Positions 11,992-28,338 are shown, counted from the stretch's first letter. The stretch is DNA of 32,000 nucleotides from PVC group bacterium (GCA_022560555.1 JADFSZ010000002.1:3843-35842); one strand, 5' to 3'. The notes: generated from the letters alone by a model not told the origin. Translations and numbers: made by a program.

Positions 11992-12366
11992 TTACACAGC
12001 CGGCCCGATATATTTATTAATCTTTTGAAGGAGGTCCTCCGGATCATACGGTTTGCTGAGATAATCATCGGCTCCGACTTTTTCGCCCAAATGCCGGTCC
12101 TCATCCGTTGATTTTGCCGAAGAAATGATGATCGGAATATGCTTATATTTCTCGTCAAATTTTAATAAGCGGCACACCTCATATCCTTCCATCTTCGGCA
12201 TCATGAGATCCAAGATGATCAGATCCGGGTTTTGTGATCTCGCTTTTTCCAGGCCTTCGGCTCCATCTGAAGCGGTCAACACCTCATAGCCTGACGCTTT
12301 AAGACGCATTGACAGGAGTTTTGTGATATTCGGTTCATCCTCCACAAACAGTATTTTTTTAGCCAT
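11992..12366 (-). CDS. stand-alone CheY-like response regulator (receiver domain only)
   Basis: 124 aa: KKILFVEDEPN..DLIILDLMMPKMEGYEV..IPIIISSAK..GADDYLSKPYDPEDL. There is no output domain. It is the last gene of the operon. Confidence 0.85.
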   Translation of the reverse strand: MAKKILFVEDEPNITKLLSMRLKASGYEVLTASDGAEGLEKARSQNPDLIILDLMMPKMEGYEVCRLLKFDEKYKHIPIIISSAKSTDEDRHLGEKVGADDYLSKPYDPEDLLQKINKYIGPAV

Positions 12367-12436
12367 TCTCTATTTCCCCTCATTCGATGTTGTTCATGTG
12401 CGCGTCATAGCATAGCCGTGAGTTCATTTCCCCCTC

Positions 12437-13699
12437 TCAGGGTCTAACAAATAAAGCGGCCCCCCGGGGCTCCATTTTGACAACTTCAAGATCTACGAGA
12501 CCGCGTAAGAATACCACATTCTCTTTGCCCTTGTCAAAATCGTAGTCATACCGTCCGTCCGGACCTAAACTTAAAAAATTAAGCGGAATATCCGTCGTCA
12601 AATTCACATTCTCACTTAAGACAACGTGGCCCGGAGGATACTCGACCATGTATTTCGTGATCACAGGCGCGTCATGGTCATATCCTAAGGTGACTTGAAT
12701 GCGCCACATACGCCCCGTCTCGGGTTTGGCCTCTAGAACAATCCGATCGCCGCTCTCAAAGGTTCGGATATTCGCTAGGCTAAAAACACGTATATGTTCT
12801 GAGTCCGGAATCCGGATCCGTGTTCCCTCGGCGATGAGCAAGCCCGACCCGGAACTCCGGGTATTTCGCATATGAACAAACGCTGTTCCTGTTTTTTGGG
12901 TTTGAATATCTTTTTCTTGAGCGTGTCCTATCGACGCGGTCACACTTACTTTGACGGCCGAAATATTGGGGATGTTTACTTTCAAAGGAGAGAGTTCCTG
13001 GTTCATGTTATTAAAATACTGAAAATGACATTGAGAAATTTTACCTCCCGAGGGCAGCCGCCCCGGAATCGATTGCGTCAGGCCCCGGTAGGTACGACTG
13101 AGACTATCATCTTTCCAGGAGAGTGTCATCGCGCAGTCCGGAAAATGTTCGGCATCCGGATGGAATATAAAACGAATGCGATCACCCGCGCGAACCGCCT
13201 GGGTGAGATAAACTTTATCATTCAGTTCCCGGGCGCGTTCTTTTTCCCCGGGCACAAATGTCACCGGTATTTGAGACCATTTCTCTTTTCCGGATTCCGA
13301 CACTTCTTCCAAGATTTCGGCAATCGGCGTAAAGCTTCCGGGTTTATACGGACGGTTGAGGATAAACGGTTTTTGTGCGGCCGTTCGAGACGATTGATGA
13401 ACGAATGAAGGATCATGGGTCTCGTCCGTCCATAAAGGAACAAACCGAATGAAAGTTTCCCCAAGATCCAAAATTTCCAGAGAATCTTTGACGCCAAGAT
13501 TGTCAAAACCTCCCTGAATGATTTCTTCGAGACAATCATCTATGGCTTTTTCGAGAAGGATCTCCTGTTGGCTATACGTGTAAGCGTCCAGGCTGGCTTG
13601 AAGCATATACAGCGTGACTCCCGTCAGCATGCCTGCGATCGCGATCGCGATCAAGAGCTCCAAGAGCGTTAGCCCTTTGTGGTTTAGCCGTTTGTCCAT
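12437..13699 (-). CDS. unusually large pseudopilin (prepilin-type N-terminal cleavage/methylation domain, about 420 aa)
   Basis: The ATG at 13699 is preceded by AAGAGGGG and follows the upstream stop at 13722; the track start at 13756 is TTG. The N-terminus MDKRLNHKG/LTLLELLIAIAIAGMLTGV is a class III signal with Glu at +5. The remaining roughly 390 aa have no family I recognise. Confidence 0.7.
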   Translation of the reverse strand: MDKRLNHKGLTLLELLIAIAIAGMLTGVTLYMLQASLDAYTYSQQEILLEKAIDDCLEEIIQGGFDNLGVKDSLEILDLGETFIRFVPLWTDETHDPSFVHQSSRTAAQKPFILNRPYKPGSFTPIAEILEEVSESGKEKWSQIPVTFVPGEKERARELNDKVYLTQAVRAGDRIRFIFHPDAEHFPDCAMTLSWKDDSLSRTYRGLTQSIPGRLPSGGKISQCHFQYFNNMNQELSPLKVNIPNISAVKVSVTASIGHAQEKDIQTQKTGTAFVHMRNTRSSGSGLLIAEGTRIRIPDSEHIRVFSLANIRTFESGDRIVLEAKPETGRMWRIQVTLGYDHDAPVITKYMVEYPPGHVVLSENVNLTTDIPLNFLSLGPDGRYDYDFDKGKENVVFLRGLVDLEVVKMEPRGAALFVRP

Positions 13700-13721
13700 G
13701 CCGGACACCCCTCTTATTTTT

Positions 13722-14210
13722 TTATTCCACGCTGTTAAACCAATCCAGGTCTTCAATGAGTGTCACGGCTTGGGCTTCCGGGAGCCCCTCAGGTTCCGAA
13801 AGAGTCGCCTCTGTTAGCTGGTAAGCCAAAATGCGAACTTCCAGAGGATCTGTTTGAAGATCCACCGTTCTCTTTATACGCCAGTACTTTTTGTTCAGTG
13901 TAACGGGAGCCTCATCCAGGGGCGGATCCCAAACATCGCCTAAAGCTTTTAGTTGGGCCTCCGTAAGCCCCATGTTTTTAACTTTTTCCATTCCTTCCTG
14001 GATCAGATATCTGGCGGTAGTCAAGTCCTGATCCATAGACACTTGTTCCAAAGAAGCTGTAAACATGCGCATGAGAGGAACAAACACAATGGCAATTACG
14101 GCAAGCGTGATGAGAAGCTCGATGAATGTAAAACCCTTTTTAGTTCGGAGGGCAAAACGCATTCTCTGTGATCTCTGTGTGCTCTGTGGTGAAGGTCTTA
14201 AAAAAGTCAT
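13722..14210 (-). CDS. pseudopilin (prepilin-type N-terminal cleavage/methylation domain)
   Basis: Motif KKG/FTFIELLITLAVIAIVFVPL. The ATG at 14210 overlaps the stop of the 1194-aa gene (ATGA). An alternative ATG at 14162 gives the short leader MRFALRTKKG. Confidence 0.7.
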   Translation of the reverse strand: MTFLRPSPQSTQRSQRMRFALRTKKGFTFIELLITLAVIAIVFVPLMRMFTASLEQVSMDQDLTTARYLIQEGMEKVKNMGLTEAQLKALGDVWDPPLDEAPVTLNKKYWRIKRTVDLQTDPLEVRILAYQLTEATLSEPEGLPEAQAVTLIEDLDWFNSVE

Positions 14211-17200
14211 GGAATTTCTCGATAAAGCTGCACGCCCACACCGGTCCTGGAAACGGTACCAAACTGCACGGTCCCATCTTGCGGAATCAGGATGGGATCC
14301 GACGTTGGTGTTACTGTAACGGTTTCTGCCTCATCATCCGTTACGGCGATCGTGGCTTTGCCCTGCGACACACTCACAGCAATGGTTTCGGCTGGTGATG
14401 TCGCGGAGGCGTTATCCGCCAGAAACTCTTCTAAAACAATGATGAAAATGGTCGCACTATCTTGTAAAAGAATCTCCCCGTTGGCATCGAGCAGCTGCAC
14501 GTTTACGCTTACCGTCCCGACCGGACCGGAGGTTGAAATAACCTGAATCGTCCCCTGTTTAATAGTGATAGCTTCAGAGTCTCCCGTTACCGTTGTGTGT
14601 ACGGTATCTGTGACGGTTAATGTTGTTTCAATCTCATCCGATCCGGCACTGGTTTCAAACAAATGTATACCTGCATCCACAGCAGTGAATGTATAATCAT
14701 CGGGAAGTGCCAGATCATCTCCCGCGAAGGTGACGGTTCCCTGATAATTGGATATGCTTGCGTCATTAAAATCCCGCGCGGTGACGATGGCTGAGAATTC
14801 CTCATCAATGTAAAAGTATGTTCGGAACGCCGGAATGGCCGATAGTGTTAAGAGTAAATCCTTGGGAATAAATGTGATCTCAACGGAAATTCCCGTTTGA
14901 GTTGTGAGGGTCGTATCCGTGGACGTGATCGTGATCGTTCCCCATTTGTCATAGATCATGTCCGTGATGACGGCAACACCGTTCGTCCAATTGGTAGATG
15001 AAAGAGTTGTCGTGTTTAAGGCTCCGGATTGATCGGCCGCGGGCGAAATCGTATTCACAGTTAAAGTGGTCGAGCCCAAATAATTCGGGCATGGGACTCC
15101 GGCGGCATTGCGAGCCGTTACGGTTAATGTAAAAGGTTTATTGACGGTGTGAAGCGCGGACGCGGTATCATCCAGTTCTGTTCCCACAACTGTAAAGTCA
15201 AACGGGACAAACAAAATGTTTCCGGTAATACCCGTGACCGTGGGATCGCTTGCATCCGTTGCTGTGATCGTAATTGTCCCACAATCCGAAAAAGTTTGAT
15301 TCGTCAAGGTGGCGACTCCTTCAACAAACGCGGAGGTGGATGTCACGCCTAAAGTGGCCAAGCCGGAATCCGGTGACACGAAACTAACCGTCATGTTTGC
15401 TGTTCCGGAATAACCCGTGAAGACGCCCCCTGTATTGTCTAAAGCCGTAATGGTTATGGTAAAATTAGTTCCGGCAATTTGCGGGCTAGAAACTGTGACG
15501 GAAAATGAGTTCACATTCGTACTGATGGTGAATTGTTGTGTGGCATCGGTCCATCCTTGGGACGGATTTTCCGAAGCGGTAAGGGTCGGGGTACCGACTT
15601 GCGAATCCCGGTAATAAAATTCGGCCGTGCTTTGCCCTGAGGAGATGGTGATTTGTGTGATGGTTGTTGCAAATGAACTGTTATCGGAAAATGTTCCTTG
15701 CGCGGATGAACTTGTGAGATCCAGCACAGTGTCTGACGAGACATTAACGGCATCACCGGAAGAGTTTTGGGTCTGTACAGTGATCACGCTTGAGATCTGA
15801 TTTTGAACTAATGTTTGGGGTGATGTCGTAAAAACAATCTGACTGATAGCATCAATAATTATATCAGCTGACACAGCCGTATCTTGATCAATCGTGATGC
15901 TTCCGCCCAACGTTTGCGTTTTAATCGAATAAGTTCCCGTTGAACCCGCCGAGCTTGGATTCGTGATACTGTTAATCTGGAAACTGACAGCTGTTGAACT
16001 CGAAACTTTTGTTCCGCCGCTTCTGGTGATCGTGATCACATCATTGGTGCCGTCCCCGTTGGATGTTGCGACGGAGAAACTTCCGTCAATGCCTGATGCC
16101 GAGGACACGGTATCCGAACCCGTTCCGTTAAACCCGGACGGAAAATCAATAACAATCAAACCATTGATCGGAATCACATTGGCTGTGGTAAAACTGATCG
16201 TCACGAGACCCTCCGCACCTGCCGAGAGAGAGTCTGGCTCGACATCCGTGCTTGTGAGTGTTCCCGGGACAAAAAACCAGTTCGTGTTTCCACCGCTGTC
16301 GGTTGAATTTGTGGCAAAAATATCTTGGCCCGTCGCATTGGAGTCTTTCACATCGACAAAATCGGCTTGATACGTGGCCCCGGTGTTGACGTTAAGTGTC
16401 CAAGCAGAGTTGTTTTGATCACTTTTTAGTGTGACAAGGCTCCCTGATGATCCCGTAAAATTGATGGCGGCACCGCTCGCAACGGAAACGGTATCGGCAT
16501 TATCGATTGTATACGTAAAACCTCCGTCAAAATCCAAGGTCCCGGCCGTCACGGTAATATTTTGAATCCCGGTACAGGTTCCTGTCAGAGTCACGGTCCC
16601 TGAAGATTTATTGATCGTGAGATTATCCTGAAAATCTCCGCCGGAATTTCCCGTAATTGTTTGATCTCCCGTGGCTGTTAAAGACAAACTTGTGGTACCC
16701 CCGTCGGCAGAAGCGCCGACGGTCACGTTGCCCTCAGGCGCCAGTGTCCCTCCGTTGATCGTGTAGTTTGTCAGACTTAATGTTCCGGTGATTGTCAGCG
16801 TCGTTCCGGCGCCAATCGTTACGGTCTTGTTACCCCCCCCGGAATCAAAGGTAAGATGATTAAAGCTCATGGATCCTGTTATATTCAAATTATTGTCCGC
16901 AAAGACCACCGTGGAGCTCCCGGCATCCACGGTTCCCTGGGTATACGTCCAATCACTGCCTGTTCGAATGATGCTGGCCAATGTCAGTGTTCCCGATGAT
17001 TTATTGATGTTGACAGCGGGACATTCTCCTGTTGAGGCCGATCCGCCGCCGGTAAACGTTTGAGCTGATGTACCTGAAATATCAAGTGTCGCTGATCCTC
17101 CGTCAAACGTTGTGGCCAGATTGATAGCTCCTTTGCTTCCCAGCGTTCCCGTGTTCACGGTTCCGTCTGTCAGATTCAGTGTTCCGTTGACTGTGAGTGT

Positions 17201-17791
17201 TTGCCCGGAAGAAATCGTAAATGTTTTGTTTGCGTTAAACGTGACATTATTGAATACGGCACTGCCCGGACTGATCGTGAGGTTATTCGTATCAAATTCC
17301 ACGGTCCCCGAATTATGTGTAAACGTTCCGGAAGAAAACGTAAAAGCTTTAGCACAAAACATTGTCCCGGACGTGGATGTAAAACTAGCACCGTTCACAG
17401 TGAATGTTCCGTTCACATCAATCGTGGAGGACCCTCCGGTAAATGTTCCGCCCGTAAAAGCGGCATTCCCTGTTCCGACGGTAAAGCTGTTCGCCCCTTG
17501 AGAAAGCGTTGTTGTGTTCCCGCTTTGCATGTCGAGGCCTCTCACATTGACCGTTTGATCAACAGTGCAGATTCCTCCGCCGGAGCTGCCGTCAAAAAAC
17601 GCCTTATCCGACGACCCGGGTACGGATTGATTTCCCGCCCCTCCGGACATGTTTGACCAATGCGCGGTGTCCGACCAATTCCCGGTCCCTCCGATCCAAT
17701 AGCGATTCGCGGCCCATGACTCGCGCGGACAAAACGCAATAACCAAAAAGACAAAAAGAAAAACCTTTTTTGAAAAAAACCCTTTTATCAT
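14207..17791 (-). CDS. 1194-aa secreted beta-helix-like / Ig-like repeat protein (candidate exoprotein or adhesin)
   Basis: Sec signal peptide MIKGFFSKKVFLFVFLVIAFCPRESWA/A. Residues about 30-508 are G/T/S/N-rich short repeats (GGTFTGGSSTIDVNGTFTVNGASFTSTSGT..). Residues about 648-1180 form five units of roughly 105 aa that share xFTxTVTAxD..G....NYxGTxxxTV. I see no recognisable C-terminal anchor or sorting signal. Confidence 0.7.
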   Translation of the reverse strand: MIKGFFSKKVFLFVFLVIAFCPRESWAANRYWIGGTGNWSDTAHWSNMSGGAGNQSVPGSSDKAFFDGSSGGGICTVDQTVNVRGLDMQSGNTTTLSQGANSFTVGTGNAAFTGGTFTGGSSTIDVNGTFTVNGASFTSTSGTMFCAKAFTFSSGTFTHNSGTVEFDTNNLTISPGSAVFNNVTFNANKTFTISSGQTLTVNGTLNLTDGTVNTGTLGSKGAINLATTFDGGSATLDISGTSAQTFTGGGSASTGECPAVNINKSSGTLTLASIIRTGSDWTYTQGTVDAGSSTVVFADNNLNITGSMSFNHLTFDSGGGNKTVTIGAGTTLTITGTLSLTNYTINGGTLAPEGNVTVGASADGGTTSLSLTATGDQTITGNSGGDFQDNLTINKSSGTVTLTGTCTGIQNITVTAGTLDFDGGFTYTIDNADTVSVASGAAINFTGSSGSLVTLKSDQNNSAWTLNVNTGATYQADFVDVKDSNATGQDIFATNSTDSGGNTNWFFVPGTLTSTDVEPDSLSAGAEGLVTISFTTANVIPINGLIVIDFPSGFNGTGSDTVSSASGIDGSFSVATSNGDGTNDVITITRSGGTKVSSSTAVSFQINSITNPSSAGSTGTYSIKTQTLGGSITIDQDTAVSADIIIDAISQIVFTTSPQTLVQNQISSVITVQTQNSSGDAVNVSSDTVLDLTSSSAQGTFSDNSSFATTITQITISSGQSTAEFYYRDSQVGTPTLTASENPSQGWTDATQQFTISTNVNSFSVTVSSPQIAGTNFTITITALDNTGGVFTGYSGTANMTVSFVSPDSGLATLGVTSTSAFVEGVATLTNQTFSDCGTITITATDASDPTVTGITGNILFVPFDFTVVGTELDDTASALHTVNKPFTLTVTARNAAGVPCPNYLGSTTLTVNTISPAADQSGALNTTTLSSTNWTNGVAVITDMIYDKWGTITITSTDTTLTTQTGISVEITFIPKDLLLTLSAIPAFRTYFYIDEEFSAIVTARDFNDASISNYQGTVTFAGDDLALPDDYTFTAVDAGIHLFETSAGSDEIETTLTVTDTVHTTVTGDSEAITIKQGTIQVISTSGPVGTVSVNVQLLDANGEILLQDSATIFIIVLEEFLADNASATSPAETIAVSVSQGKATIAVTDDEAETVTVTPTSDPILIPQDGTVQFGTVSRTGVGVQLYREIP

Positions 17792-17837
17792 TTTTTATGT
17801 TTTCTTGTTTATTTTGAAAGGGGTCGTGAAATTTTAA

Positions 17838-19544: not shown

Positions 19545-19587
19545 AGTGATTTTGTCCTCTTTGATGACTCCGTTTTTATTCTTGTGT

Positions 19588-20446: not shown

Positions 20447-20496
20447 TCTTCTCCTTATTTCTTTTAACGAAACAGTTTTTTCAATAAAACAGTTTT

Positions 20497-21720
20497 TTAA
20501 TGAAATAATTTAATCAAATTAAAAATCGGCATCAAAATAGATAGAGCAATAAAAGCCACGACCCCACCCATCACGAGGAGCAAGGCCGGTTCTAAAATGG
20601 TGGCCATATTTTTCAGCGCGTACTCAACTTCCCGATCATAGAAGGTGGCTGCTTCCTGGAGCATTTGATCCAATGATCCGCTTTTCTCGCCCATAACAAC
20701 CATCTGTGTAACAGCCTGAGGAAAAATGCCGCTGGTGATCAAAGGTTCGCTCAATGGGGCGCCTTCTGAAATCGCGAAACGGATCCCTTCCATTTTTTTC
20801 GCGATAAACTGATTCCCGGCGACTTTCTCAACCGTCATGAGGGCTTCCGTGATAGGAACACCCGTATGGAGCAAAACTCCCAGGGTTCGTGTCACACGCG
20901 CAACGATCCCTTTCAATTGTAACGATCCAAAAAGAGGTATTTTCAAAATCCAAGTATCCACACGCAAGCGCCCATGGGCGGTTTTGATATACCGTTTGAT
21001 CCATAAGACCGCCAAGATTACGGCCGCGATCGCGCCAAACCAAAATCGTCGAAAAAAGAGGCTTGCCCCAAGCAAAAATTGCGTGGACAAAGGCAGATCT
21101 GTATCATACGCTTCAAAAATGACCGTGAATTTTGGAACCGTATTGACCAAAAGGAACCCGACGATACCGATTGCGGCCAGAGCTAAAAACACCGGATAGG
21201 TCATAGCCGTCCGGATTCGGATCTTAAACTCATATTCACGCGCGTACATGTCCGCCGTTCTTTCCAAAACATCATCCAGGATTCCGCCGGTTTCTCCAAC
21301 ACGGACCATACTCACGAACAGATCCGTAAAAATATCCGGATGTTTCCTCAAGGACTCCGAAAAGGAGTCTCCTCCTTCTAAATCTCTCGCGACTTTGCCG
21401 AGAGTTTTCTTCAATTTTCGATTCTTGGTTTGCTCTTCTAAGCTTTTAACGGCACTCACTATGGGAATTCCGGCTTTTATGAGGGCTGCGAGCTGCCGGG
21501 TTAAAAAAACAATCTCGGTTTTATGAGACTGGGTCAGGATCTGATAGACATCGTTCCACCACTCTTTCAGACCTCTTTGTTTTGTTTGGAGGGAGATGAC
21601 GCTGTACCCCAAAGAACGCAGCCTCACGGCCGCGGCCATATCATCCTGGGCTTCAATTGTTGATGAGAACATTTCTCCGTCCTTATCACGGACTTTGTAA
21701 AAAAAGAGAGGCATTGTCAA
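20497..21720 (-). CDS. GspF/PilC-family inner-membrane platform protein
   Basis: 407 aa. N-terminus FFYKVRDKDGEMFSSTIEAQDDMAAAVRLRSLGYSVISL, two T2SSF repeats and three TM segments. There is a 4-nt overlap with the secretin stop. Confidence 0.9.
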   Translation of the reverse strand: MTMPLFFYKVRDKDGEMFSSTIEAQDDMAAAVRLRSLGYSVISLQTKQRGLKEWWNDVYQILTQSHKTEIVFLTRQLAALIKAGIPIVSAVKSLEEQTKNRKLKKTLGKVARDLEGGDSFSESLRKHPDIFTDLFVSMVRVGETGGILDDVLERTADMYAREYEFKIRIRTAMTYPVFLALAAIGIVGFLLVNTVPKFTVIFEAYDTDLPLSTQFLLGASLFFRRFWFGAIAAVILAVLWIKRYIKTAHGRLRVDTWILKIPLFGSLQLKGIVARVTRTLGVLLHTGVPITEALMTVEKVAGNQFIAKKMEGIRFAISEGAPLSEPLITSGIFPQAVTQMVVMGEKSGSLDQMLQEAATFYDREVEYALKNMATILEPALLLVMGGVVAFIALSILMPIFNLIKLFH

Positions 21721-23372
21721 GCCCCTCTTCGTCTTTTCATGAATTTACGGTTTTTGGAAAGGATTTTTTTATCGATCTGTTTTAACAATTTTTTGGCTTT
21801 CCTGATCAGAGAAGACTCCGGATATTCATGAATGAGTTCGACCAACATGGCTTGCGCGGCCACCAGATCATCAAAATATTTATAGGCTAAGTTCCCGCCG
21901 CGAAAGAGGGCTTCCGGTGTTTTCTCGCTTTGGGGATATATGGACACGATCTTTTGATATCGCCTGAGGGCAAGAACCATCCGGTCCCGTCGATCTTTAT
22001 TACGCGAAATGATCCCGCGCCCTTTTTCCAAATCGGCAGCCTCTTGCCACAATTGATGCACCAGAACCTGTTCACCGGTTTCTTTAATTTGAACAAAAAC
22101 CTCCCGGGGAATTTCCGGGCGCTGGTTTCCCGGTGAATCCCTATACTTGATTATCGTTGGGGTGATAAACACGACCAATTCCGTTGACGTCGTGTCACTA
22201 CTTCTGTGCCGAAAGAGTCGTCCCAGGATCGGAATGCTTCCCAGGATCGGAATTTTTCCCTTAATGCTATCCTCCTGGCGCTTAATGAGACCTCCGATGA
22301 CAATCGTCTCTCCGTCTTTCACAACAATCGTGGCATCCGCTTCCCGGGTGGCCACACGCGGACCGGCCTCCAACTCTGCGGTTAAGGATGAAACCTCGGG
22401 ATGAACGTACATTGTGATCCAGCCGTCGGGAGAGACCCAGGGCGTCACTCTCAGTGTGGTTCCGATATCGACAAATTTTGTTGTTTCCGTTGTTCCGGTT
22501 GTCGTTTGAGTTTTCTCTTTATAGGGAAACCGTTCTCCGATAATGATCCGGGCTTCTTTTCCGCTGAGAGTCATAATGGAGGGTGATGCCAAAAGATGGG
22601 CTTTATTATCTCTGATCAAGGCATCAATCGTGGCCGTGGCGGTGATTCCTTTTGTTGCAAAGGACGTTAATTTGAGTTGACCGCCGGAAAGGGTTGAGGA
22701 AGGGCCTGCCATATCTCCGCTTCCTCCCAAATCAAAAAACCGGCTTTGAACGGTCCAGCTAAAGCCTGCGTTTCGACTATCTTGCTCGGTGATGTCAATC
22801 AATCTGGCTTCGATCAGGACTTGAATCGGCGGTGTATCCAATTCCTCCAGGGTTTTTCGTAAATTCTCGATGTACGCCGGATAATCCGTGACCACAAGCG
22901 TGTTGTTCGCTTCATTCACCCGAATCTTTCCAAGAGAAGACAGTCCATCCGTTAAGAGACGGCTCGCGTCATGCGCGTTTAAATAGTTCAGGACTACGGT
23001 TTCTGTTGTCACACGCACACCGTCGACTCCAGGGCTCGGCGTGATGTAAATCAGATTTCCTTTTTTGATATAGGTGTATCCATTAATGCTTAAGATCACC
23101 TGAAGAGCTTCTTCGACCGTCACATTTGTCAACGGGAAAGACACGGTCCCCTCAATATTTTTGGGGGCCACCAAATTTAAGTTGTACGAATAGGCAAGCG
23201 ATCTTAAAACGCTGGTAAGAGACGCGTCCTGAAAATCGAGCGTGATCAATTCTTGATCCATTTCATGGCTGATGGTGTCCTCCGTTGCTAGCACCACCCC
23301 TGCGGGGGGCATCATGGAGAGGAGCAAGACCAAACACATCATCTTGCCTAAGGGTATTATGCGTGCCGACAT
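21717..23372 (-). CDS. secretin (GspD/PilQ/MshL family) with a 141-aa C-terminal TPR-like extension
   Basis: The ATG at 23372 is preceded by AAGGAG; the track start at 23417 is TTG. The protein has a signal peptide, an N0-like domain (ITLDFQDASLTSVLRSLA..EEALQVILSINGYTY) and a secretin core ending GKIPILGSIPILGRLFRHRSSDTTSTELVVFITPTII. An extra tail follows, with RRYQKIVSIYPQSEKTPEALFRGGNLAY..LVELIHEYPESSLIRKAKKLL. Confidence 0.85.
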   Translation of the reverse strand: MSARIIPLGKMMCLVLLLSMMPPAGVVLATEDTISHEMDQELITLDFQDASLTSVLRSLAYSYNLNLVAPKNIEGTVSFPLTNVTVEEALQVILSINGYTYIKKGNLIYITPSPGVDGVRVTTETVVLNYLNAHDASRLLTDGLSSLGKIRVNEANNTLVVTDYPAYIENLRKTLEELDTPPIQVLIEARLIDITEQDSRNAGFSWTVQSRFFDLGGSGDMAGPSSTLSGGQLKLTSFATKGITATATIDALIRDNKAHLLASPSIMTLSGKEARIIIGERFPYKEKTQTTTGTTETTKFVDIGTTLRVTPWVSPDGWITMYVHPEVSSLTAELEAGPRVATREADATIVVKDGETIVIGGLIKRQEDSIKGKIPILGSIPILGRLFRHRSSDTTSTELVVFITPTIIKYRDSPGNQRPEIPREVFVQIKETGEQVLVHQLWQEAADLEKGRGIISRNKDRRDRMVLALRRYQKIVSIYPQSEKTPEALFRGGNLAYKYFDDLVAAQAMLVELIHEYPESSLIRKAKKLLKQIDKKILSKNRKFMKRRRGA

Positions 23373-23391
23373 ATGTGTCTCCTTTTTCGTA

Positions 23392-24279
23392 TTATTCCGG
23401 ACGATACGATAAAACAATATCTGAGATACCGTCCGTTAAAACGATTTGGTTCCGAGTAATTTTTTTAATCGTTTTTTTATCGATGGCGTCTCCCACACGG
23501 TACACCCGGCCATTAATAATCACTGTGGGATTTTTTCCCGTTGGGATCACCCCGCTGATATGATATGTTTCTTCCTGCCCGGAAACCGCTTTTGGAGACG
23601 GCCCCTGGATGTCGCTCACGAGCGGATTTCGACTCATTTGAATTTCAGGAATATCTTGAACTTCTGCGGGGCCTTGATCTTTTATGGCTTCTCCTAACAA
23701 CGTAGACAGTGTCAGTTTGATTTCGGCTCTACCTTGAAAGCCGTTCTCCATTTTTTCCATAACCATTTCATTCGGTTTCAAGAATTGTGATAAAGCTTCC
23801 AGGCGATAAAGATAGTTCACAAGGCCCGGATAATCCGCATGAAATATCATCTCCACATCCAGACGGGAATATTCTTCCAACGGATCACCCAGTTTGGGTT
23901 TAATGGAAATCAAATCAATCGGGTATCCCTCGGCTTGGCGGGCTATTTGACCCAAAATTTGCGGAATGCTGCCCTGCCGGGGCAGCTCGGCCTCTACATC
24001 GGCTAACTCGGACATAAGCCATTTGTACCGTTCTTGATCCGCTTGAAGGGCCTCTTCTTCTTTTTGAACATTCGGGGTCTCGCTTTGAATCCTGATCCTT
24101 TGATTGTCCAATTGAAGTGCGTGGGCTTTCAAGTCCCTGAGGACGGCTGCTCGCGGTTTATAAGAAAACCGGACATAGGCGCTAAAGATAATCACAAGCG
24201 CTAAAAGGCCCAGAAGCATTTTTCTCTGCAGGGTCTGCGCGTGAAATCCTTCGATAAGCTTATGTGTTTTTTTTGTCAC
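23392..24279 (-). CDS. PilO-like protein fused to a PilP/GspC-HR-like C-terminal domain
   Basis: 295 aa. A TM helix and coiled coil are followed by a PilO-like core (LPRQGSIPQILGQIARQAEGYPIDLISIKP..ADYPGLVNYLYRLEAL). After a linker comes YHISGVIPTGKNPTVIINGRVYRVGDAIDKKTIKKITRNQIVLTDG. Confidence 0.6.
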   Translation of the reverse strand: MTKKTHKLIEGFHAQTLQRKMLLGLLALVIIFSAYVRFSYKPRAAVLRDLKAHALQLDNQRIRIQSETPNVQKEEEALQADQERYKWLMSELADVEAELPRQGSIPQILGQIARQAEGYPIDLISIKPKLGDPLEEYSRLDVEMIFHADYPGLVNYLYRLEALSQFLKPNEMVMEKMENGFQGRAEIKLTLSTLLGEAIKDQGPAEVQDIPEIQMSRNPLVSDIQGPSPKAVSGQEETYHISGVIPTGKNPTVIINGRVYRVGDAIDKKTIKKITRNQIVLTDGISDIVLSYRPE

Positions 24280-24866
24280 AATGCCCCGGTTGACATCAAT
24301 ATATGCGTTGTTACCTCAAAATTAATAAGAGGTCTTCCGTCCAAATCGGTTTTTTCGGTATAGTTAAAACCCGTGCGTTCAAAAGTAACTGAAGTATCCA
24401 GGCGCTCCATAAACTGACTCACTTTGATATTGTCCAGCGTTGTGCCGATAATGGTGATCTGGTTTTGATCCAGCATCATTTTATCGATCCATAAATCCGA
24501 CGGAACATATTCAGAGAGGGTTTTTAAAACTTCAGAAAAATCGATCTGACGGCTTCGGGACATTCGAATGACTCTCAATTTTCCTTCAAGACGCTTACTA
24601 TTCTCCCGGATCCGTTTTCTTTGCTCCTCGGCTTTAGTTACGGCGCTTTGTTGTTCGATCAGATTTGCTTCATCATTTTGTATGGCTTTTTGCTGCCGGG
24701 GGATGCGGATACGCAGGCTCATTATCCACAGGGACTGCCCCAGAAAGACAAGCCCCATGATGACAAAAACACTGATCACACCAAACCATATGCGATTTTT
24801 CGGCAAAGTCCGCCATTCGGCTTGTTTTTTTGAAACGCTCCTCGTTATGAGATTGATCCGTCTCAT
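24276..24866 (-). CDS. PilN-like assembly protein
   Basis: 196 aa. The N-terminal MRRINLI motif is followed by a TM helix, a coiled coil and a ferredoxin-like C-terminal part. It has 4-nt overlaps with both neighbouring genes. Confidence 0.7.
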   Translation of the reverse strand: MRRINLITRSVSKKQAEWRTLPKNRIWFGVISVFVIMGLVFLGQSLWIMSLRIRIPRQQKAIQNDEANLIEQQSAVTKAEEQRKRIRENSKRLEGKLRVIRMSRSRQIDFSEVLKTLSEYVPSDLWIDKMMLDQNQITIIGTTLDNIKVSQFMERLDTSVTFERTGFNYTEKTDLDGRPLINFEVTTHILMSTGAL

Positions 24867-26095
24867 TCTTCTAAGCCTCTTAGGGCCAAACCCAAGGCCA
24901 CATTGAAGGCCCCTCCTGTCGGAATCCCCATTTGCCCGGCCATCAAATCTCCCAAAGGATCGGCAAGTGTAACAGGAACGTTAAGACGCGAAGTTAAAAA
25001 GGGGACAAAACCCTTGAGAGACGAGGCCCCTCCACAGACAATAACGCGGTTATATTTCGTGATCTGCGACCGTGTGATCTGAAACGAAAAATGCTTAAAC
25101 GTATGTTCGATGTCTTGAACAAGATGTTCCAAATGAGAAAGAATCGCGTTCCGCACCTGAGTCGCATGATTTGTCATTTCCGGAGCCTGATCATCCAAAG
25201 TTTGATCCCCGGTACCGATGGAAATGCCATGCTCACGTTTTAAGAGTTCGGCCTCTTCCCAGCTGGTTTGACAGTATTGACTGATGGCTTTGGTTAAAAA
25301 GTTTCCCGTGATGTTTAAGCTCCTCACAGAAATCAGTTCTTTGTTGCTAATAATTCCAACCGTTGTTTGTCCCGCGCCAAAATCAAGGTAAAGCACAACT
25401 TCCTGCTCGTGAAGATAGCCATTACCATAGCTTAAAGCTGCCACATCCGAAAGAGCCTCGACATCAGTCGCGAGGGTTTCCAGGCCGACGGATTTCAAAA
25501 GGCCGAGTTGTTCGTGAACAACTTTTCTTTGGGTCACGATCACCAGGAATCCGACGTCATTGTCAAACAAATCCCGGCTTTGCTTCTCAAGAACAAGATA
25601 GTCATAGGTGATTTCATCGGGATTCCGGCGAAACTGTTGTTGGATTTCCCAGTACATGGCTTTGTCCACTTCCTGGGGTGGAATTCTGGGAAGTTTGATA
25701 AGATCCAGTTTGCAGGCTGAGATGGGCACATGTGTGAAACAAGCGTCTTTCAAATTTATGCTTTTGCTGATCTTTCTGAGGATTTCCGATATATAGATCG
25801 CTTTTTGGTCGGGATGCTCTCGCACGGACGAGGGAAAATCTTCAGTTAGGGCATGGATCACACGTATTCGTCCCTCGCTTTCAAGGCCTAGCTGAACAAT
25901 TTTGAGGGAATGTGTTCCTATATCGAGTCCGAAGGGATATCGTTTGCTGATCAGGATCTGAGGGCTCGGGATCTTTGGCTCTTCAACATTTTGACGCCCT
26001 TTTTGATCAAAGAGGCGGGACGCCTTTTTTTTGGACGGACGTGAAAAGACTGTTTGAACAATATCCGGATTATGAGATGGTTTCGATTCCGGCAC
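24863..26095 (-). CDS. PilM-like actin-fold assembly protein with an N-terminal extension
   Basis: The signature FGLDIGTHSLKIVQL and an ASKHA fold run throughout. The track start at 26167 is TTG. I prefer the GTG at 26095, preceded by GGAG at 7-nt spacing. Either start overlaps the 3-prime end of the ParA-like gene. Confidence 0.75.
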   Translation of the reverse strand: MPESKPSHNPDIVQTVFSRPSKKKASRLFDQKGRQNVEEPKIPSPQILISKRYPFGLDIGTHSLKIVQLGLESEGRIRVIHALTEDFPSSVREHPDQKAIYISEILRKISKSINLKDACFTHVPISACKLDLIKLPRIPPQEVDKAMYWEIQQQFRRNPDEITYDYLVLEKQSRDLFDNDVGFLVIVTQRKVVHEQLGLLKSVGLETLATDVEALSDVAALSYGNGYLHEQEVVLYLDFGAGQTTVGIISNKELISVRSLNITGNFLTKAISQYCQTSWEEAELLKREHGISIGTGDQTLDDQAPEMTNHATQVRNAILSHLEHLVQDIEHTFKHFSFQITRSQITKYNRVIVCGGASSLKGFVPFLTSRLNVPVTLADPLGDLMAGQMGIPTGGAFNVALGLALRGLEE

Positions 26096-27035
26096 CAAGG
26101 CTCTCCGATACGGGTAAGTGATTAACGTTTTGAGAACACTGAGGGTCTTTTGCAAGAGTGCGTTCAATGACCTCCTGGGTCAGGGCCCAATAATCTTTGG
26201 CCCCTTGGGATGTCCGGGCATATAGATGAATGGGCTTTTTATAAATCGGGGCTTCACAGAGTTTGACATTGTAATGAATAGGGGTCCGGAAAACCAAGTC
26301 CTTGAAGTAGTTTTGAATTTGATCTAACACGCGGTGGCTGACCTTGGTTCTTTTATCAAAGAGTGTCGCGAGGATCCCGAGAATCTTCACGTCAAAATTG
26401 AGCCGTTCTTTCACAATATCGATGGTGGAAAACAGCTCTTTCATCCCCTCTAAAGAATAATAATGCGTTTGGACGGGGATAATCACGTAATCGGCCGCGA
26501 CGATGGCATTCAGGGTCACGAGATTCAGACTCGGGGAGCAATCGATTAGTGTATATTGGTATTTTTTACGAAGGCGCAATTTGTGAATCGCGATCCTGAG
26601 GATGGATTCTCTTCCCAGGACTGTTGCCAGCTCTAATTGAGCATCGGCGAGAGAGACGTTGGCCGAAGCGATATCCAGATTTTTGACGGATGTTTTTTGA
26701 ATCACATCTTCAAGTCCCGCATTGTTGATCAGCACATCATACGTTGATTTTTCTGTCTGTTCGATGTCGACCCCGAGGCCAAGCGACGCGTGGGCCTGAG
26801 CATCAAGATCAATCAGGAGAACCCGGTATCCTTTCTCGGCCAGACAAGACGAGAGATTGATAGCCGTCGTTGTTTTGCTGCATCCTCCTTTTTGATTACA
26901 GATGGCGATGCAAATTTGTTGAGTTGTCGATATAGGGACATCATTTTTGGAATTCAATGAGGTGGGCTGGTTTTGGACACGTTCTTCTTTCAGGGCTTTA
27001 TCTCGCGAAAAACTATTTTTGAATTGATCAAACAT
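26070..27035 (-). CDS. ParA/MinD-family P-loop ATPase, first gene of the pilus/secretion operon
   Basis: 321 aa. The ATG at 27035 is preceded by AGAGGGGG. It has the deviant Walker A CNQKGGCSKTTTAINLS, plus LLIDLDAQA and YTLIDCSPSL. About 40 aa of unique N-terminal extension and about 25 aa of C-terminal tail are present. Confidence 0.85.
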   Translation of the reverse strand: MFDQFKNSFSRDKALKEERVQNQPTSLNSKNDVPISTTQQICIAICNQKGGCSKTTTAINLSSCLAEKGYRVLLIDLDAQAHASLGLGVDIEQTEKSTYDVLINNAGLEDVIQKTSVKNLDIASANVSLADAQLELATVLGRESILRIAIHKLRLRKKYQYTLIDCSPSLNLVTLNAIVAADYVIIPVQTHYYSLEGMKELFSTIDIVKERLNFDVKILGILATLFDKRTKVSHRVLDQIQNYFKDLVFRTPIHYNVKLCEAPIYKKPIHLYARTSQGAKDYWALTQEVIERTLAKDPQCSQNVNHLPVSESLGAGIETIS

Positions 27036-27407: not shown

Positions 27408-27434
27408 CGTGAAATACCCACCATGTATCGGACA

Positions 27435-27806: not shown

Positions 27807-27833
27807 ATTTCCCTCCTCCCCTGCAGACCCCAC

Positions 27834-28310: not shown

Positions 28311-28338
28311 ATGAACTCCTTCCTATCCGGGAATGATC

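What the first reader, a model, noticed from the sequence alone, without database searches (positions are those of the whole stretch)
11992..27035. Atypical hybrid type IV filament / type II secretion-like operon (MSH-, T4aP- and T2SS-like parts combined)
Seen: 13 co-oriented genes run from the ParA-like ATPase to the terminal CheY. They have 4-nt ATGA-type overlaps at 24863-24866, 24276-24279, 21717-21720 and 14207-14210. The order is ParA-like ATPase, PilM, PilN, PilO/PilP-like fusion, secretin with TPR tail, GspF/PilC, GspG-like pilin, PilX_N-like protein, MshE-like ATPase, a 1194-aa signal-peptide protein, two pseudopilins and CheY. Established: T4aP machines use PilMNOPQ plus PilB, PilT and PilC. 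T2SS machines use GspC/L/M with GspG-K. MSH pili use a c-di-GMP-binding MshE and a TPR protein (MshN) beside the secretin MshL. This locus mixes a PilMNOP-type alignment complex with a GspG-type pilin and an MshE-type ATPase. The ATPase sits downstream of the pilins, and a giant exoprotein gene lies between the ATPase and the minor pilins. Within the window there is no retraction ATPase, no prepilin peptidase and no GspC/L/M. Inference: this may be a distinct, poorly described subtype of the type IV filament superfamily that secretes or displays its own encoded cargo.
Basis: partly seen in the sequence, partly recalled or inferred. Interest (0 to 1): 0.8.

Follow-up and report, generated by a model that had tools for sequence, protein, structure and literature searches.

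The report
Omnitrophota pilus operon with tip adhesin
This is a real 13-gene operon from an uncultivated Omnitrophota ("PVC group") bacterium that most likely builds a type IV pilus-like fibre carrying its own large, MshQ-like adhesin at the tip; it is a lineage-specific variant of a known machine, not a new kind of machine.

Summary
Thirteen co-oriented minus-strand genes (11992-27035) encode, in order, a ParA-like ATPase, PilM, PilN, a PilO protein with a PilP/GspC-HR-like tail, a secretin with a TPR tail, a platform protein, a major pilin, a small pilin lacking Glu5, a PilB/GspE-family ATPase, a 1194-aa exported protein, two pseudopilins and a CheY.

The same cassette recurs in Omnitrophota at 50-61% ATPase identity. 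The order giant-pseudopilin-pseudopilin is kept in 14 of 23 metagenome loci.

The "hybrid" look is mostly nomenclature plus equidistance. ATPase, platform and secretin each form their own clade. They fall outside the reference T2SS clades, and the secretin falls outside the MSH clade. They score below every equivalog cut-off. Gene content (split PilM/PilN, PilO, no GspC/L/M) is T4aP-like.

New here: the large protein has a variable N-terminus, a conserved stalk of Ig-like domains and a near-invariant C-terminal peptide (FGTVSGxGVGIQLWREI). It is remotely homologous to MshQ, whose C-terminus carries the same motif. With I-, J- and K-type minor pilins, this fits a tip-initiation complex displaying an adhesin rather than secreting cargo.

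PilT and the prepilin peptidase cannot be assessed from this window. Verdict: new variant of a known kind, moderate interest.

The parts
27379..27407 (-). Best sigma-70-like promoter match (TTGACA-17-TAAAAT, 11/12) in the 400-nt ORF-free region upstream of parA. Candidate operon promoter.
   Evidence: Consensus match only; the number of such sites in the region is not above the shuffled expectation.
27138..27236 (.). Two 43-nt direct repeats (93% identical, 56-nt spacing) between the promoter-like site and parA. Possible regulator sites or a leader element.
   Evidence: 0 matches expected by chance; no Rfam family; not found in the related loci.
26070..27035 (-). Orphan ParA/MinD-family ATPase (deviant Walker A KGGCSKTT). 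Proposed positioning ATPase for the machine.
   Evidence: AAA_31 192 bits, CbiA 85 bits. Below all NCBIfam partition cut-offs. Its stop overlaps the pilM start here and in L001, L003 and L005.
24863..26095 (-). PilM, cytoplasmic actin-like component of the alignment subcomplex.
   Evidence: PilM_2 92 bits, TIGR01175 108 bits. The start is inferred from ortholog alignment.
24276..24866 (-). PilN, bitopic, with the N-terminal INLI motif of PilM-binding PilN proteins.
   Evidence: PF05137 54.5 bits; sequence read; ATGA overlap with pilM.
23392..24279 (-). PilO fused to a C-terminal PilP/GspC-HR-like beta domain (residues about 238-284).
   Evidence: PilO 32.5 bits, CdsD_C 29.6 bits, Y4YQ_C and T2SSB weak. 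Orthologs carry CdsD_C, Y4YQ_C and T2SSC marks. All orthologs are 292-314 aa.
21717..23372 (-). Secretin (N0/STN, one N domain, secretin domain) with a C-terminal TPR tail (about 472-552).
   Evidence: Secretin 171 bits. TIGR02515 PilQ 247 bits (<284), GspD 229 (<351), MshL 136 (<250), YbgF-type TPR 31 bits. PDB: PilQ 136 bits, GspD 118 bits. The tail is present in L001, L003 and L097 and absent in L005.
20497..21714 (-). Inner-membrane platform protein (PilC/GspF/MshG family).
   Evidence: T2SSF 209 bits. TIGR02120 GspF 364 bits (<424), Thermus PilC 334 (<700). BLAST: MshG 34%, PilC 31.5%, XcpS 34%.
19964..20446 (-). Major pilin (G|FTLIELL, Glu5 present, leader up to 16 aa, 144-aa mature part, no Cys pair).
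   Evidence: N_methyl 35 bits, T2SSG 21.4 bits. GspG 45.9 bits (<88.85). 55-66% identical to orthologs.
19588..19986 (-). Small K-type (PilK/PilX/GspK/MshP-like) minor pilin: RG|VILLT, Thr instead of Glu at +5.
   Evidence: Orthologs in L001, L003 and L005 all have Thr5. PilX_N (weak) on the L003/L004 ortholog. Weak match to Aeromonas MshP.
17838..19544 (-). Extension ATPase of the PilB/GspE/MshE family, with an N-terminal MshEN-type region and a tetracysteine motif.
   Evidence: T2SSE 458 bits, MshEN 78 bits. PilB 602 bits (<675.65), GspE 560 (<630.25), c-di-GMP motif domain 63 bits (>38). PDB: PilF 504, PilB 482 and 465 bits.
14207..17791 (-). 1194-aa exported protein. It has a variable beta-helix-like N-terminal half, a conserved stalk of Ig/MG-like domains (about 650-1180) and a conserved C-terminal peptide ...FGTVSRTGVGVQLYREIP. 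Proposed MshQ-like tip adhesin.
13722..14210 (-). I-type minor pilin (G|FTFIELL, Glu5). Its start overlaps the adhesin stop (ATGA).
   Evidence: N_methyl 30.8 bits. GspI 24.6 bits (<44.35). 51-53% identical to orthologs. Junction.
12437..13699 (-). 420-aa minor pilin (G|LTLLELL, Glu5), proposed J-type, with a large all-beta head that has no match in the PDB.
   Evidence: 26% to E. coli GspJ over 99 aa; 67 representatives at E<=1e-30.
11992..12366 (-). Stand-alone CheY-type receiver, conserved directly after the long pseudopilin.
   Evidence: Response_reg 104 bits. 61-65% identical receivers follow mp2 in at least 11 metagenome loci.
27435..31958 (-). Two receivers and two histidine kinases directly upstream (one dCache/HAMP kinase, one with a degenerate GGDEF-like end). 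Possible regulators; whether they belong to the system is uncertain.
   Evidence: Two-component genes also flank the cassette in L001 and L003, but they are not the same genes.

Best explanation
The operon encodes an Omnitrophota-specific, T4aP-like envelope-spanning pilus machine that assembles a fibre primed by, and tipped with, its own large adhesin.

Shown by sequence and family tests:
- A PilM-PilN-PilO alignment module.
- A secretin.
- A PilC/GspF-family platform.
- A PilB/GspE-family hexameric ATPase with an MshEN-type N-terminus.
- One major pilin and three minor pilins.

Inferred:
1. The PilP-like beta domain fused to PilO contacts the secretin N0 domain. The TPR tail fused to the secretin stands in for a separate TPR pilotin or partner (PilF, PilW, Tgl or MshN type).
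2. The Glu5-less small pilin (K-type), the 162-aa pilin (I-type) and the 420-aa pilin (J-type) form the tip-initiation complex.
3. The 1194-aa Sec-exported protein docks into that complex through its conserved extreme C-terminal peptide (FG...VGxQL[WY]REI) by beta-strand addition, as proposed for PilC/PilY1 and MshQ. It then rides out through the secretin on the growing fibre. Its lineage-variable N-terminal domain (beta-helix here; LamG, PA14 or DUF2341 in orthologs) is presented on an Ig-domain stalk to bind a surface, probably a host or prey cell or a glycan.
4. The orphan ParA, translationally coupled to pilM, positions or counts machines, as TadZ/CpaE, BcsQ and FlhG do for other envelope machines.
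5. The CheY-type receiver and the neighbouring two-component genes, and possibly c-di-GMP through the ATPase N-terminus, tune assembly.

The prepilin peptidase and any retraction ATPase must be encoded elsewhere.
For: Conserved cassette:
- The same gene order occurs in L003/L004 (ATPase 58% identical), L005 (51%), L096 (50%), L098, L107 and L110, with partial copies in L001/L002.
- Adhesin-mp1-mp2 are adjacent in 14 of 23 metagenome loci. An adhesin-mp2 gene pair overlaps in a complete Omnitrophota genome far from the core genes (L095).

T4aP-like core:
- PilM and PilN are split, PilO is present, and there is no GspL/M/C.
- PilB is the best NCBIfam model (602 bits).
- The ATPase aligns over its whole length to Thermus PilF and to Geobacter and Myxococcus PilB, at 40-43% identity.

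Adhesin:
- Only the C-terminal ~545 aa are conserved (45-57% identity). The N-termini differ between orthologs.
- The C-terminal motif is near-invariant in 30+ homologs. It is essentially absent elsewhere: 1 internal match in 364,305 residues.
- In the AlphaFold model the stalk has pLDDT >90, but the last 14 residues are unstructured in the monomer.
- Foldseek finds only Ig/MG-domain chains.
- hhalign against Aeromonas MshQ gives 91.5% probability, E 8.7e-7, over 192 columns. hmmsearch gives 34.7 bits.
- MshQ ends ...FGSSRGNDRVIYRREVLH, the same motif type.

Minor pilin types: Thr5 in all X orthologs, Glu5 in the others, and weak GspI, GspJ and MshP similarities.

The tip-complex model and the proposal that MshQ is a functional PilY1 homologue come from PMC12918778. 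Omnitrophota T4aP calls and the attachment hypothesis come from PMC10066038.
Against: - No experiment bears on this system, and no multimer model could be run. C-terminal docking is therefore an inference.
- The K-type gene lies apart from the I/J genes, unlike the usually syntenic I-J-K order.
- The more distant adhesin homologs P0148 and P0151 are not next to pilus genes.
- L001/L002 have the core genes without the adhesin or the I/J pilins nearby.
- The MshQ similarity rests on a single MshQ sequence. It lies in repeat-like, compositionally biased beta domains (bias 13.9). The motif pattern was also written after seeing MshQ.
- The major pilin is GspG-like at the margin, and no PilT is seen. 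A short pseudopilus therefore cannot be excluded.
- ParA is absent from L096, and the MerR-like gene seen upstream of parA in three relatives is absent here.
- The Arg residues of both MshEN motifs are replaced (Leu6, Lys35), so c-di-GMP binding is uncertain.
- My NJ trees leave the deep nodes unresolved.
Confidence: 0.6

Rival explanations
1. The operon is a T2SS-like secretion machine. A short pseudopilus of the GspG-like pilin pushes the 1194-aa protein, exported to the periplasm by Sec, through the secretin as released cargo. The pseudopilins form the piston tip.
For: - The major pilin has a marginal T2SSG/GspG match.
- The platform scores best against the GspF model.
- No retraction ATPase lies in the window.
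- The large protein has a signal peptide.
- T2SS operons that carry their own cargo gene are known (pulA; yghJ/SslE; from my own knowledge).
- West-Roberts et al. report T2SS-like loci upstream of giant genes in Omnitrophota.
Against: - There is no GspC, GspL or GspM. PilM and PilN are split as in T4P.
- The ATPase N-terminus is MshEN/PilB-type, not the GspL-binding N1E type. XcpR and GspE align only from residue ~170 onward.
- ATPase, platform and secretin lie outside the GspE/XcpR, GspF/XcpS and GspD/XcpQ clades.
- A released cargo needs no conserved terminal docking peptide. This protein shares one with MshQ and is translationally coupled to minor pilins.
- The locus described by West-Roberts contains RcpC and a rotamase, so it is a different cassette.
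Confidence: 0.15
2. It is an ordinary T4aP operon. The apparent peculiarities come from naming and divergence, and the large protein is just a neighbouring surface protein with no role in the pilus.
For: TXSScan already calls Omnitrophota loci T4aP in nearly all genomes. The best ATPase and secretin models are PilB and PilQ. The large protein matches no curated family. Distant homologs occur away from pilus genes.
Against: - The adhesin-mp1-mp2 order is conserved in 14 loci, with a 4-nt start/stop overlap here and a 22-nt overlap in L095.
- There is remote homology to MshQ and a shared C-terminal motif.
- All core proteins fall below the equivalog cut-offs.
- The PilO-PilP and secretin-TPR fusions, the coupled ParA and the unusual gene order recur across orthologs.
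Confidence: 0.15
3. It is a DNA-uptake (competence) pilus, and the large protein or the big pseudopilin acts as a tip DNA receptor.
For: A ComEA-type gene (SLBB + HHH_3) lies about 4 kb downstream at 7371-7976. The closest solved ATPase is Thermus PilF, from a competence-linked T4aP.
Against: ComEA is separated from the operon by purA and a carbamoyltransferase gene and is not conserved next to the cassette in the related loci. The adhesin N-terminal modules in orthologs are carbohydrate- or adhesion-type (LamG, PA14, DUF2341). No DNA-binding domain was detected.
Confidence: 0.05

Closest known systems
Type IVa pilus machines (PilMNOPQ-PilBC, minor pilins FimU/PilVWX with the PilY1/PilC tip adhesin), especially the deep-branching Thermus, Myxococcus and Geobacter types
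   Same: - PilM, PilN and PilO are separate genes, with a secretin and a PilC-family platform.
- The ATPase is PilB-type and full length, with an MshEN-type N-terminus (40-43% identical to Geobacter and Myxococcus PilB and to Thermus PilF).
- The minor pilin set is I/J/K-type, with a large non-pilin, Sec-exported protein encoded among them.
- A TPR partner of the secretin exists in these systems (PilF, PilW, Tgl).
   Different: - PilP is fused to PilO, and the TPR module is fused to the secretin.
- The secretin has no AMIN domains.
- The tip protein has no PilY1 beta-propeller. It has an Ig-domain stalk and an MshQ-type C-terminus.
- The ATPase gene sits between the K-type pilin and the adhesin/I/J genes.
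- A ParA gene is coupled to pilM.
- All core proteins score below the equivalog cut-offs.
- PilT and PilD are not seen in the window.
MSHA pilus system (mshIJKLMNEGF-BACDOPQ) of Vibrio and Aeromonas, and the MSH-like loci of Thermodesulfobacteriota
   Same: - The large terminal protein is remotely homologous to MshQ and ends in the same FG...[YW]R(R)E[VI] motif.
- The K-type pilin is small, the size of MshP.
- The ATPase has an MshEN-type N-terminus.
- A TPR element accompanies the secretin (MshN).
- The platform's best BLAST match is MshG (34%).
   Different: - The secretin lies outside the MshL clade, which includes the Syntrophaceae loci at 92% bootstrap.
- There is no MshM (ExeA-like AAA+) protein.
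- PilM and PilN are not fused as in MshI.
- The ATPase is only 37% identical to Aeromonas MshE and does not group with it.
- The gene order differs.
Type II secretion systems (GspC-O)
   Same: A secretin, a GspE-family ATPase core, a GspF-family platform, a marginally GspG-like major (pseudo)pilin, and an I/J/K-type tip. Operons that include a cargo gene are known.
   Different: There is no GspC, GspL or GspM. The ATPase N-terminus is not the GspL-binding type. The core proteins lie outside the reference T2SS clades. The K-type pilin is very small and is accompanied by a separate large protein with a conserved terminal peptide.
Tad pilus TadZ/CpaE and other orphan ParA/MinD positioning ATPases (BcsQ, FlhG, PpfA)
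   Same: A ParA/MinD-family ATPase is encoded inside the operon of an envelope-spanning machine.
   Different: It has no TadZ-type receiver-like N-domain. It is generic AAA_31/Soj-like by sequence. The association is with pilMNO, not with Tad genes. It is also seen next to pilMNO in a Sedimentisphaerales locus (L071).
T2SS/Tad-like locus upstream of giant genes in Omnitrophota (West-Roberts et al. 2023, bioRxiv 10.1101/2023.11.21.568195)
   Same: The phylum is the same, and a type IV filament-family locus is followed by a large exported protein thought to mediate attachment.
   Different: That locus has RcpC, a rotamase and class III signal peptide genes, and it precedes proteins more than 10 times longer with many transmembrane segments. 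This cassette has PilMNO, no RcpC, and a 0.7-2 kaa MshQ-like protein.

Membership tests
Type IVa pilus (T4aP) | PilB-type extension ATPase | tested here: inconclusive
   TIGR02538 is the best model at 602 bits but lies below its 675.65 cut-off. Full-length alignment to PilB and PilF structures. In the NJ tree it lies outside the proteobacterial PilB clade, with deep nodes unresolved.
Type IVa pilus (T4aP) | Separate PilM, PilN and PilO alignment proteins | tested here: met
   PilM_2 92 bits, PilN 54.5 bits and PilO 32.5 bits, all above the Pfam cut-offs.
Type IVa pilus (T4aP) | PilP lipoprotein linking PilNO to the secretin | tested here: inconclusive
   There is no separate gene. A small beta domain is fused to PilO (CdsD_C 29.6 bits; T2SSB, T2SSC and Y4YQ_C weak).
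Type IVa pilus (T4aP) | PilQ secretin | tested here: inconclusive
   TIGR02515 scores 247 bits, below its 284.35 cut-off. PDB PilQ 136 bits against GspD 118 bits. No AMIN domain. No PilQ reference was included in my tree.
Type IVa pilus (T4aP) | PilT retraction ATPase and PilD prepilin peptidase | not testable with these tools
   Neither is in the 32-kb window. The rest of the genome is not available.
Type IVa pilus (T4aP) | PilY1/PilC tip adhesin with a C-terminal beta-propeller | tested here: not met
   The conserved C-terminal half is modelled as a chain of Ig/MG-like sandwiches, not a propeller. No PilY1 family hit.
Type II secretion system | GspC, GspL and GspM assembly platform proteins | tested here: not met
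   No hits above cut-off: T2SSM_b 18.5 bits (<21.7), GspM 24.8 bits (<60). No BLAST match to E. coli GspC/L/M.
Type II secretion system | GspE, GspF, GspD and GspG equivalogs | tested here: not met
   GspE 560 bits (<630), GspF 364 (<424), GspD 229 (<351), GspG 45.9 (<88.85). The proteins lie outside the GspE/XcpR, GspF/XcpS and GspD/XcpQ clades, which have 99-100% bootstrap.
MSHA pilus system | MshL-type secretin | tested here: not met
   TIGR02519 scores 136 bits (<250). 24% identity to Aeromonas MshL. The secretin lies outside the MshL plus Syntrophaceae clade, which has 92% bootstrap.
MSHA pilus system | MshM (ExeA-like AAA+) and MshN (TPR) proteins | tested here: not met
   There is no ExeA-like gene in the cassette. 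The only TPR element is the secretin tail. The MSH-like Syntrophaceae loci do have both proteins.
MSHA pilus system | MshE ATPase with a c-di-GMP-binding MshEN domain | tested here: inconclusive
   The NF053729 motif domain scores 63 bits (>38) and PF05157 scores 78 bits. However, the motif Arg residues are Leu6 and Lys35. The domain is shared with T4aP PilB proteins. Identity to Aeromonas MshE is 37%.
MSHA pilus system | MshQ large terminal protein next to MshO/MshP-type minor pilins | tested here: met
   hhalign gives 91.5% probability, E 8.7e-7. hmmsearch gives 34.7 bits. The C-terminal motif is shared. This is remote homology to one MshQ sequence only.
Orphan ParA/MinD positioning ATPases | Deviant Walker A ATPase of the ParA/MinD fold, encoded with its cargo machine and without a ParB/centromere context | tested here: met
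   AAA_31 192 bits and the KGGCSKTT motif. Below all partition-protein cut-offs. Overlaps pilM in four distinct loci. A positioning function was not tested.

The most novel reading that the evidence does not exclude
The cassette may represent a separate, phylum-level branch of the type IV filament superfamily, equidistant from T4aP, T2SS and MSH. It would be the host or prey attachment organelle of Omnitrophota nanobacteria. In this reading, a swappable adhesin head is mounted on a conserved Ig stalk. The head is plugged into a K/I/J minor-pilin tip through an FG...WRE terminal strand inherited from a common ancestor with MshQ. A dedicated ParA places the machine.
Probability: 0.3. Interest if true: 0.65.

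Novelty: new variant of a known kind. Interest (0 to 1): 0.45.

Why it matters
Omnitrophota are abundant, uncultivated ultra-small bacteria suspected of predatory or parasitic lifestyles. How they attach to partners is unknown.

This cassette offers a concrete, testable candidate for the attachment device. It names a candidate docking peptide (FG...WRE) and a module whose N-terminal domain varies between lineages and could track host range.

It also extends the recently proposed tip-complex beta-strand-addition model, and the idea that MshQ is a PilY1 analogue, to a distant phylum.

Finally, it points to ParA-coupled pilMNO operons in PVC-related bacteria, a link between positioning ATPases and non-Tad type IV filaments that I did not find described.

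Tried and rejected
- **Exact-sequence look-ups.** Look-ups of the ATPase and of P0241 found no contig on record.
- **GTDB genome scan with the ATPase.** The scan depends on six exact peptide patterns. It missed the true orthologs and returned mostly Syntrophaceae, Dehalococcoidia and Planctomycetota PilB-family loci. I used these only as comparison and outgroup material.
- **Large protein against curated libraries.** Pfam, NCBIfam and PDB sequence searches gave nothing. The PF20419/PF28247 marks on homologs come from a newer Pfam release and could not be reproduced locally.
- **Foldseek.** The adhesin model returned only generic Ig/MG chains. The 420-aa pseudopilin model had no match (best E 0.04).
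- **Literature search.** The first search for 'MshQ' returned only a urology questionnaire.
- **More MshQ sequences.** A search of the plasmid collection found only the query itself. The MshQ comparison therefore rests on one Aeromonas sequence, which is split by IS elements.
- **Locus scanning with A2.** The 51-sequence alignment was too diverse, so I used a 15-sequence alignment instead.
- **Rfam.** No RNA family was found in the window. In particular there is no c-di-GMP riboswitch in the leader.
- **MerR gene.** No remnant of the MerR-like gene seen in relatives was found.
- **Motif-only profile search.** I considered this against the 1.84-billion library but rejected it. A ~20-residue motif cannot reach significance there.
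- **NJ trees.** Deep nodes have under 40% bootstrap. I use the trees only to say what the proteins are not nested in.

Full report
**1. What is in the window**

All large ORFs between 11992 and 31958 lie on the minus strand. Composition is uniform at 0.44-0.50 GC.

- ParA/MinD-family ATPase (AAA_31, 192 bits).
- PilM (92 bits) and PilN (54.5 bits).
- A 295-aa PilO (32.5 bits) with an extra C-terminal beta domain matching CdsD_C, Y4YQ_C and T2SSB.
- A secretin (171 bits; STN and one N domain) with a weak TPR/YbgF-type tail.
- A T2SSF-family platform (209 bits).
- A prepilin with a marginal T2SSG match.
- A small protein with a GspK/PilX-like N-terminus.
- A T2SSE ATPase (458 bits) with an MshEN domain.
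- A 1194-aa protein with a signal peptide and no family match.
- Two N_methyl pseudopilins.
- A stand-alone receiver.

Two receivers and two histidine kinases lie directly upstream.

Ortholog alignments and the junction sequences refine several starts: pilM GTG 26095, secretin ATG 23372, platform ATG 21714, X GTG 19986, long pseudopilin ATG 13699. Three of the four claimed 4-nt overlaps are real. The one at 21717-21720 depends on an unlikely TTG start.

Intergenic gaps inside the cassette are at most ~70 nt. Terminator-like sites are not enriched. This is consistent with one operon driven from the 400-nt ORF-free region upstream of parA, which holds the best promoter-like site.

**2. Source and conservation**

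The long pseudopilin is 100% identical to an NCBI protein from a 'PVC group bacterium' on a 35.8-kb contig. The named ATPase relatives are all Candidatus Omnitrophota.

The cassette is conserved in other Omnitrophota contigs:
- L003/L004 (ATPase 58% identical) and L005 (GCA_964478715.1, 51%) have MerR-like HTH, ParA, PilM, PilN, PilO(P), secretin, platform, pilin, X, ATPase, large protein, mp1, mp2.
- L001/L002 (61%) have ParA through ATPase, followed by a kinase and a regulator.
- L096 (50%) has the same genes without ParA, with a PilZ gene inserted, and with mp1 before the large protein.
- L097, from the sister ATPase clade, has secretin, platform, pilin, X, mp1, mp2, ATPase. Its large-protein homolog lies elsewhere in the same assembly.

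A metagenome scan seeded with the long pseudopilin returned 23 loci. In 14 of them the order is large protein (with the C-terminal motif in 13), mp1, mp2. In at least 11, a receiver 61-65% identical to the window's CheY follows.

In a complete 1.43-Mb Omnitrophota genome, an adhesin homolog overlaps the mp2 homolog by 22 nt, away from the core genes.

The long pseudopilin family is small. It has 67 representatives at E<=1e-30 among 1.84 billion cluster representatives.

**3. Is it a hybrid?**

By curated models, every core protein falls below every equivalog cut-off:

| Protein | Model scores (cut-off) |
|---|---|
| ATPase | PilB 602 (675), GspE 560 (630) |
| Secretin | PilQ 247 (284), GspD 229 (351), MshL 136 (250) |
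| Platform | GspF 364 (424), Thermus PilC 334 (700) |
| Pilin | GspG 46 (89) |

Against solved structures, the ATPase aligns over its full length, N-terminus included, to T4aP ATPases: Thermus PilF 504 bits, Geobacter PilB 482 bits, Myxococcus PilB 465 bits. An MshEN-type N-terminus is therefore not an MSH signature.

BLAST against references pulled from annotated records gives mixed and distant best hits:
- ATPase: 43% to Geobacter PilB, 37% to Aeromonas MshE. It matches XcpR and GspE only over the C-terminal 400 residues.
- Platform: 34% to MshG.
- Secretin: 31% to GspD, 24% to MshL.

I built neighbour-joining trees with 100 bootstraps. The cassette proteins form their own clades (70% for the ATPase with all Omnitrophota relatives; 100% for platform and secretin). 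They lie outside:
- proteobacterial PilB (97%);
- GspE/XcpR (99%), GspF/XcpS (100%) and GspD/XcpQ (99%);
- for the secretin, the MshL clade (92%), which includes the MSH-like loci of Thermodesulfobacteriota.

Deep nodes are unresolved and references are few. They do not show that this is a separate superfamily branch.

Gene content decides the functional type. Split PilM/PilN plus PilO, with no GspC/L/M and no MshM, is T4aP-like. This agrees with published TXSScan calls of T4aP in nearly all Omnitrophota genomes (PMC10066038).

**4. The large protein**

Only its C-terminal ~545 residues are conserved (45-57% identity). The N-terminal halves differ between orthologs:
- Gly/Thr-rich beta-helix-like repeats here;
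- DUF2341 and PA14 in L003, L005 and L096;
- Laminin_G_3 in P0133.

AlphaFold2 with a 30-sequence alignment models residues 650-1180 at pLDDT >90 as consecutive Ig/MG-like sandwiches. The N-terminal part comes out as moderate-confidence beta-helix. The last 14 residues are unstructured. Foldseek returns only titin, complement MG domains and S-layer chains.

The extreme C-terminus is the most conserved short element of the family: G-x-V-x-F-G-T-V-S-G-x-G-V-G-I-Q-L-W-R-E-I, usually followed by a short acidic tail. In the window it reads ...FGTVSRTGVGVQLYREIP-stop. A regular expression for it matches 13 family members at their C-termini. It matches only once internally in 364,305 residues of other ORFs.

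Homologs carry weak precomputed DUF6701 marks. I recalled DUF6701 as the MshQ domain, so I recovered an Aeromonas caviae MSH locus from a chromosome mis-filed among plasmids. Its MshQ is split by IS elements. The comparison gave three results:
- Its C-terminal fragment aligns to the family profile with hhalign at 91.5% probability, E 8.7e-7, over 192 columns. The alignment covers two copies of an F-x-P-x-D-F ... pFtLtvtArN..G...NY.G unit.
- hmmsearch gives 34.7 bits.
- The fragment ends ...AIFGSSRGNDRVIYRREVLH, the same motif type.

**5. Minor pilins and mechanism**

The small X protein and all three orthologs examined have Thr at +5 instead of Glu. This is the mark of the apical PilK/PilX/GspK/MshP class. 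X is also MshP-sized, with a weak MshP match.

mp1 (162 aa) has Glu5 and a weak GspI match. mp2 (420 aa) has Glu5 and a weak GspJ match. Its confident model (pLDDT 87.8, pTM 0.80) shows a pilin helix plus a large all-beta head with no PDB neighbour.

A 2026 study (PMC12918778) reports three points:
- The extreme C-terminal strand of PilC/PilY1 completes the beta-sheet of the K-type minor pilin. This licenses assembly and anchors the adhesin.
- T2SS GspK supplies this strand itself.
- AlphaFold models predict that MshQ docks in the same way onto MshP.

The window's set matches that scheme: a K-type pilin, an I-type pilin, a J-type pilin, and an MshQ-like protein whose conserved terminal peptide is disordered on its own. 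I therefore favour display of a tip adhesin over release of a cargo. This step is inferred. No multimer model or experiment was possible.

**6. Other recurrent features**

- *PilO-PilP fusion.* The C-terminal domain of PilO matches families related to the GspC-HR/PilP fold: T2SSB here, T2SSC faint in L096. The fusion length is conserved at 292-314 aa.
- *Secretin TPR tail.* It is present in most orthologs but not in L005. It may replace a separate TPR partner.
- *ParA.* The gene overlaps pilM in four distinct loci. A 47%-identical ParA follows pilMNO in a Sedimentisphaerales locus (L071). I found no paper describing a ParA-pilM operon. By analogy with TadZ/CpaE, BcsQ and FlhG (from my own knowledge) I propose positioning, untested.
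- *c-di-GMP.* The MshEN c-di-GMP motif domain passes its NCBIfam cut-off. However, the motif Arg residues are Leu6 and Lys35 in the window and are similarly replaced across the cassette clade. c-di-GMP control is possible but unproven. A PilZ gene inside L096 and an RR-GGDEF gene next to L003 hint at it.

**7. What remains open**

- PilT and the prepilin peptidase are not in the window and could not be searched in the genome.
- The MshQ link rests on one sequence and on repeat-like domains.
- More distant adhesin homologs are unlinked to pilus genes.
- The phylogenetic position needs a proper reference set.

Literature already covers two neighbouring facts: Omnitrophota T4aP (PMC10066038), and a different T2SS/Tad-like locus upstream of giant genes (bioRxiv 10.1101/2023.11.21.568195; also 10.64898/2026.06.07.730766). 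I found no description of this particular cassette, its MshQ-like adhesin or its C-terminal motif.

**8. Verdict**

The finding is a real, conserved, lineage-specific variant of a T4aP-like machine with an MshQ-like tip adhesin module. It is a new variant of a known kind.

Noticed in passing
window 27036-27434: This is a 400-nt ORF-free region upstream of parA. It contains two 43-nt direct repeats (27138-27180 and 27194-27236, 93% identical), an 18-nt tandem pair (27316-27351) and a 12-nt inverted repeat (27231-27257). Relatives carry a MerR/HTH_17-like gene at this position, but no remnant of it is found here.
   Followed up: partly
window 8438-10251 (minus strand): A carbamoyltransferase (NodU/CmcH type) is split into two ORFs in different frames. 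The break lies between Carbam_trans_N profile positions 220 and 239. This is a frameshift, a pseudogene or an assembly error.
   Followed up: partly
window 6962-7976 (minus strand): A ComEA-type gene (SLBB + HHH_3) overlaps a LysM protein gene, about 4 kb downstream of the pilus operon. This may link to DNA uptake, but the arrangement is not conserved next to the cassette in relatives.
   Followed up: partly
window 30345-31958 (minus strand): A histidine kinase whose C-terminal ~140 residues give a sub-threshold GGDEF match (21.7 bits against a cut-off of 23.8). This may be a degenerate diguanylate cyclase-like output or receptor domain.
   Followed up: no
L001/L002 3021-3317: A 98-aa GIY-YIG/T5orf172-type gene is inserted between pilM and pilN, overlapping both. 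It looks like a homing-endonuclease-like insertion inside the operon.
   Followed up: no
L096 9067-9480; protein P0079: One ortholog locus has a PilZ-domain gene between the pilin and the K-type pilin. One ATPase homolog (P0079, 685 aa) has a fused receiver domain. Both point to varied signalling inputs into these machines.
   Followed up: no
L005 1-2244: A second PilM-like gene (548 aa) followed by 193-aa and 141-aa genes lies directly upstream of the MerR-ParA-PilM cassette. Omnitrophota genomes carry several type IV filament loci: P0038 and P0068 appear to be paralogous ATPases on one contig, judged only from their identical listed contig length (132,175 bp).
   Followed up: no
L008-L013, L016-L027, L082 (GTDB genomes): Syntrophaceae and other Thermodesulfobacteriota carry MSH-type loci: pilins, a fused PilM/N (MshI-like), MshJ and MshK-like genes, a lipoprotein secretin, an ExeA-like MshM, a TPR MshN and MshE. 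Their secretins group with Aeromonas MshL at 92% bootstrap.
   Followed up: partly
L088 (NZ_AP026896.1 324635-366314): A 4.9-Mb Aeromonas caviae chromosome is filed as a plasmid in PLSDB. Its mshQ gene is broken into three pieces by two IS elements.
   Followed up: partly
L071 17195-20486: A Sedimentisphaerales (Planctomycetota) pilus locus has a ParA gene (47% identical to the window's) directly after pilM-pilN-pilO. The ParA-pilMNO link therefore extends beyond Omnitrophota.
   Followed up: partly
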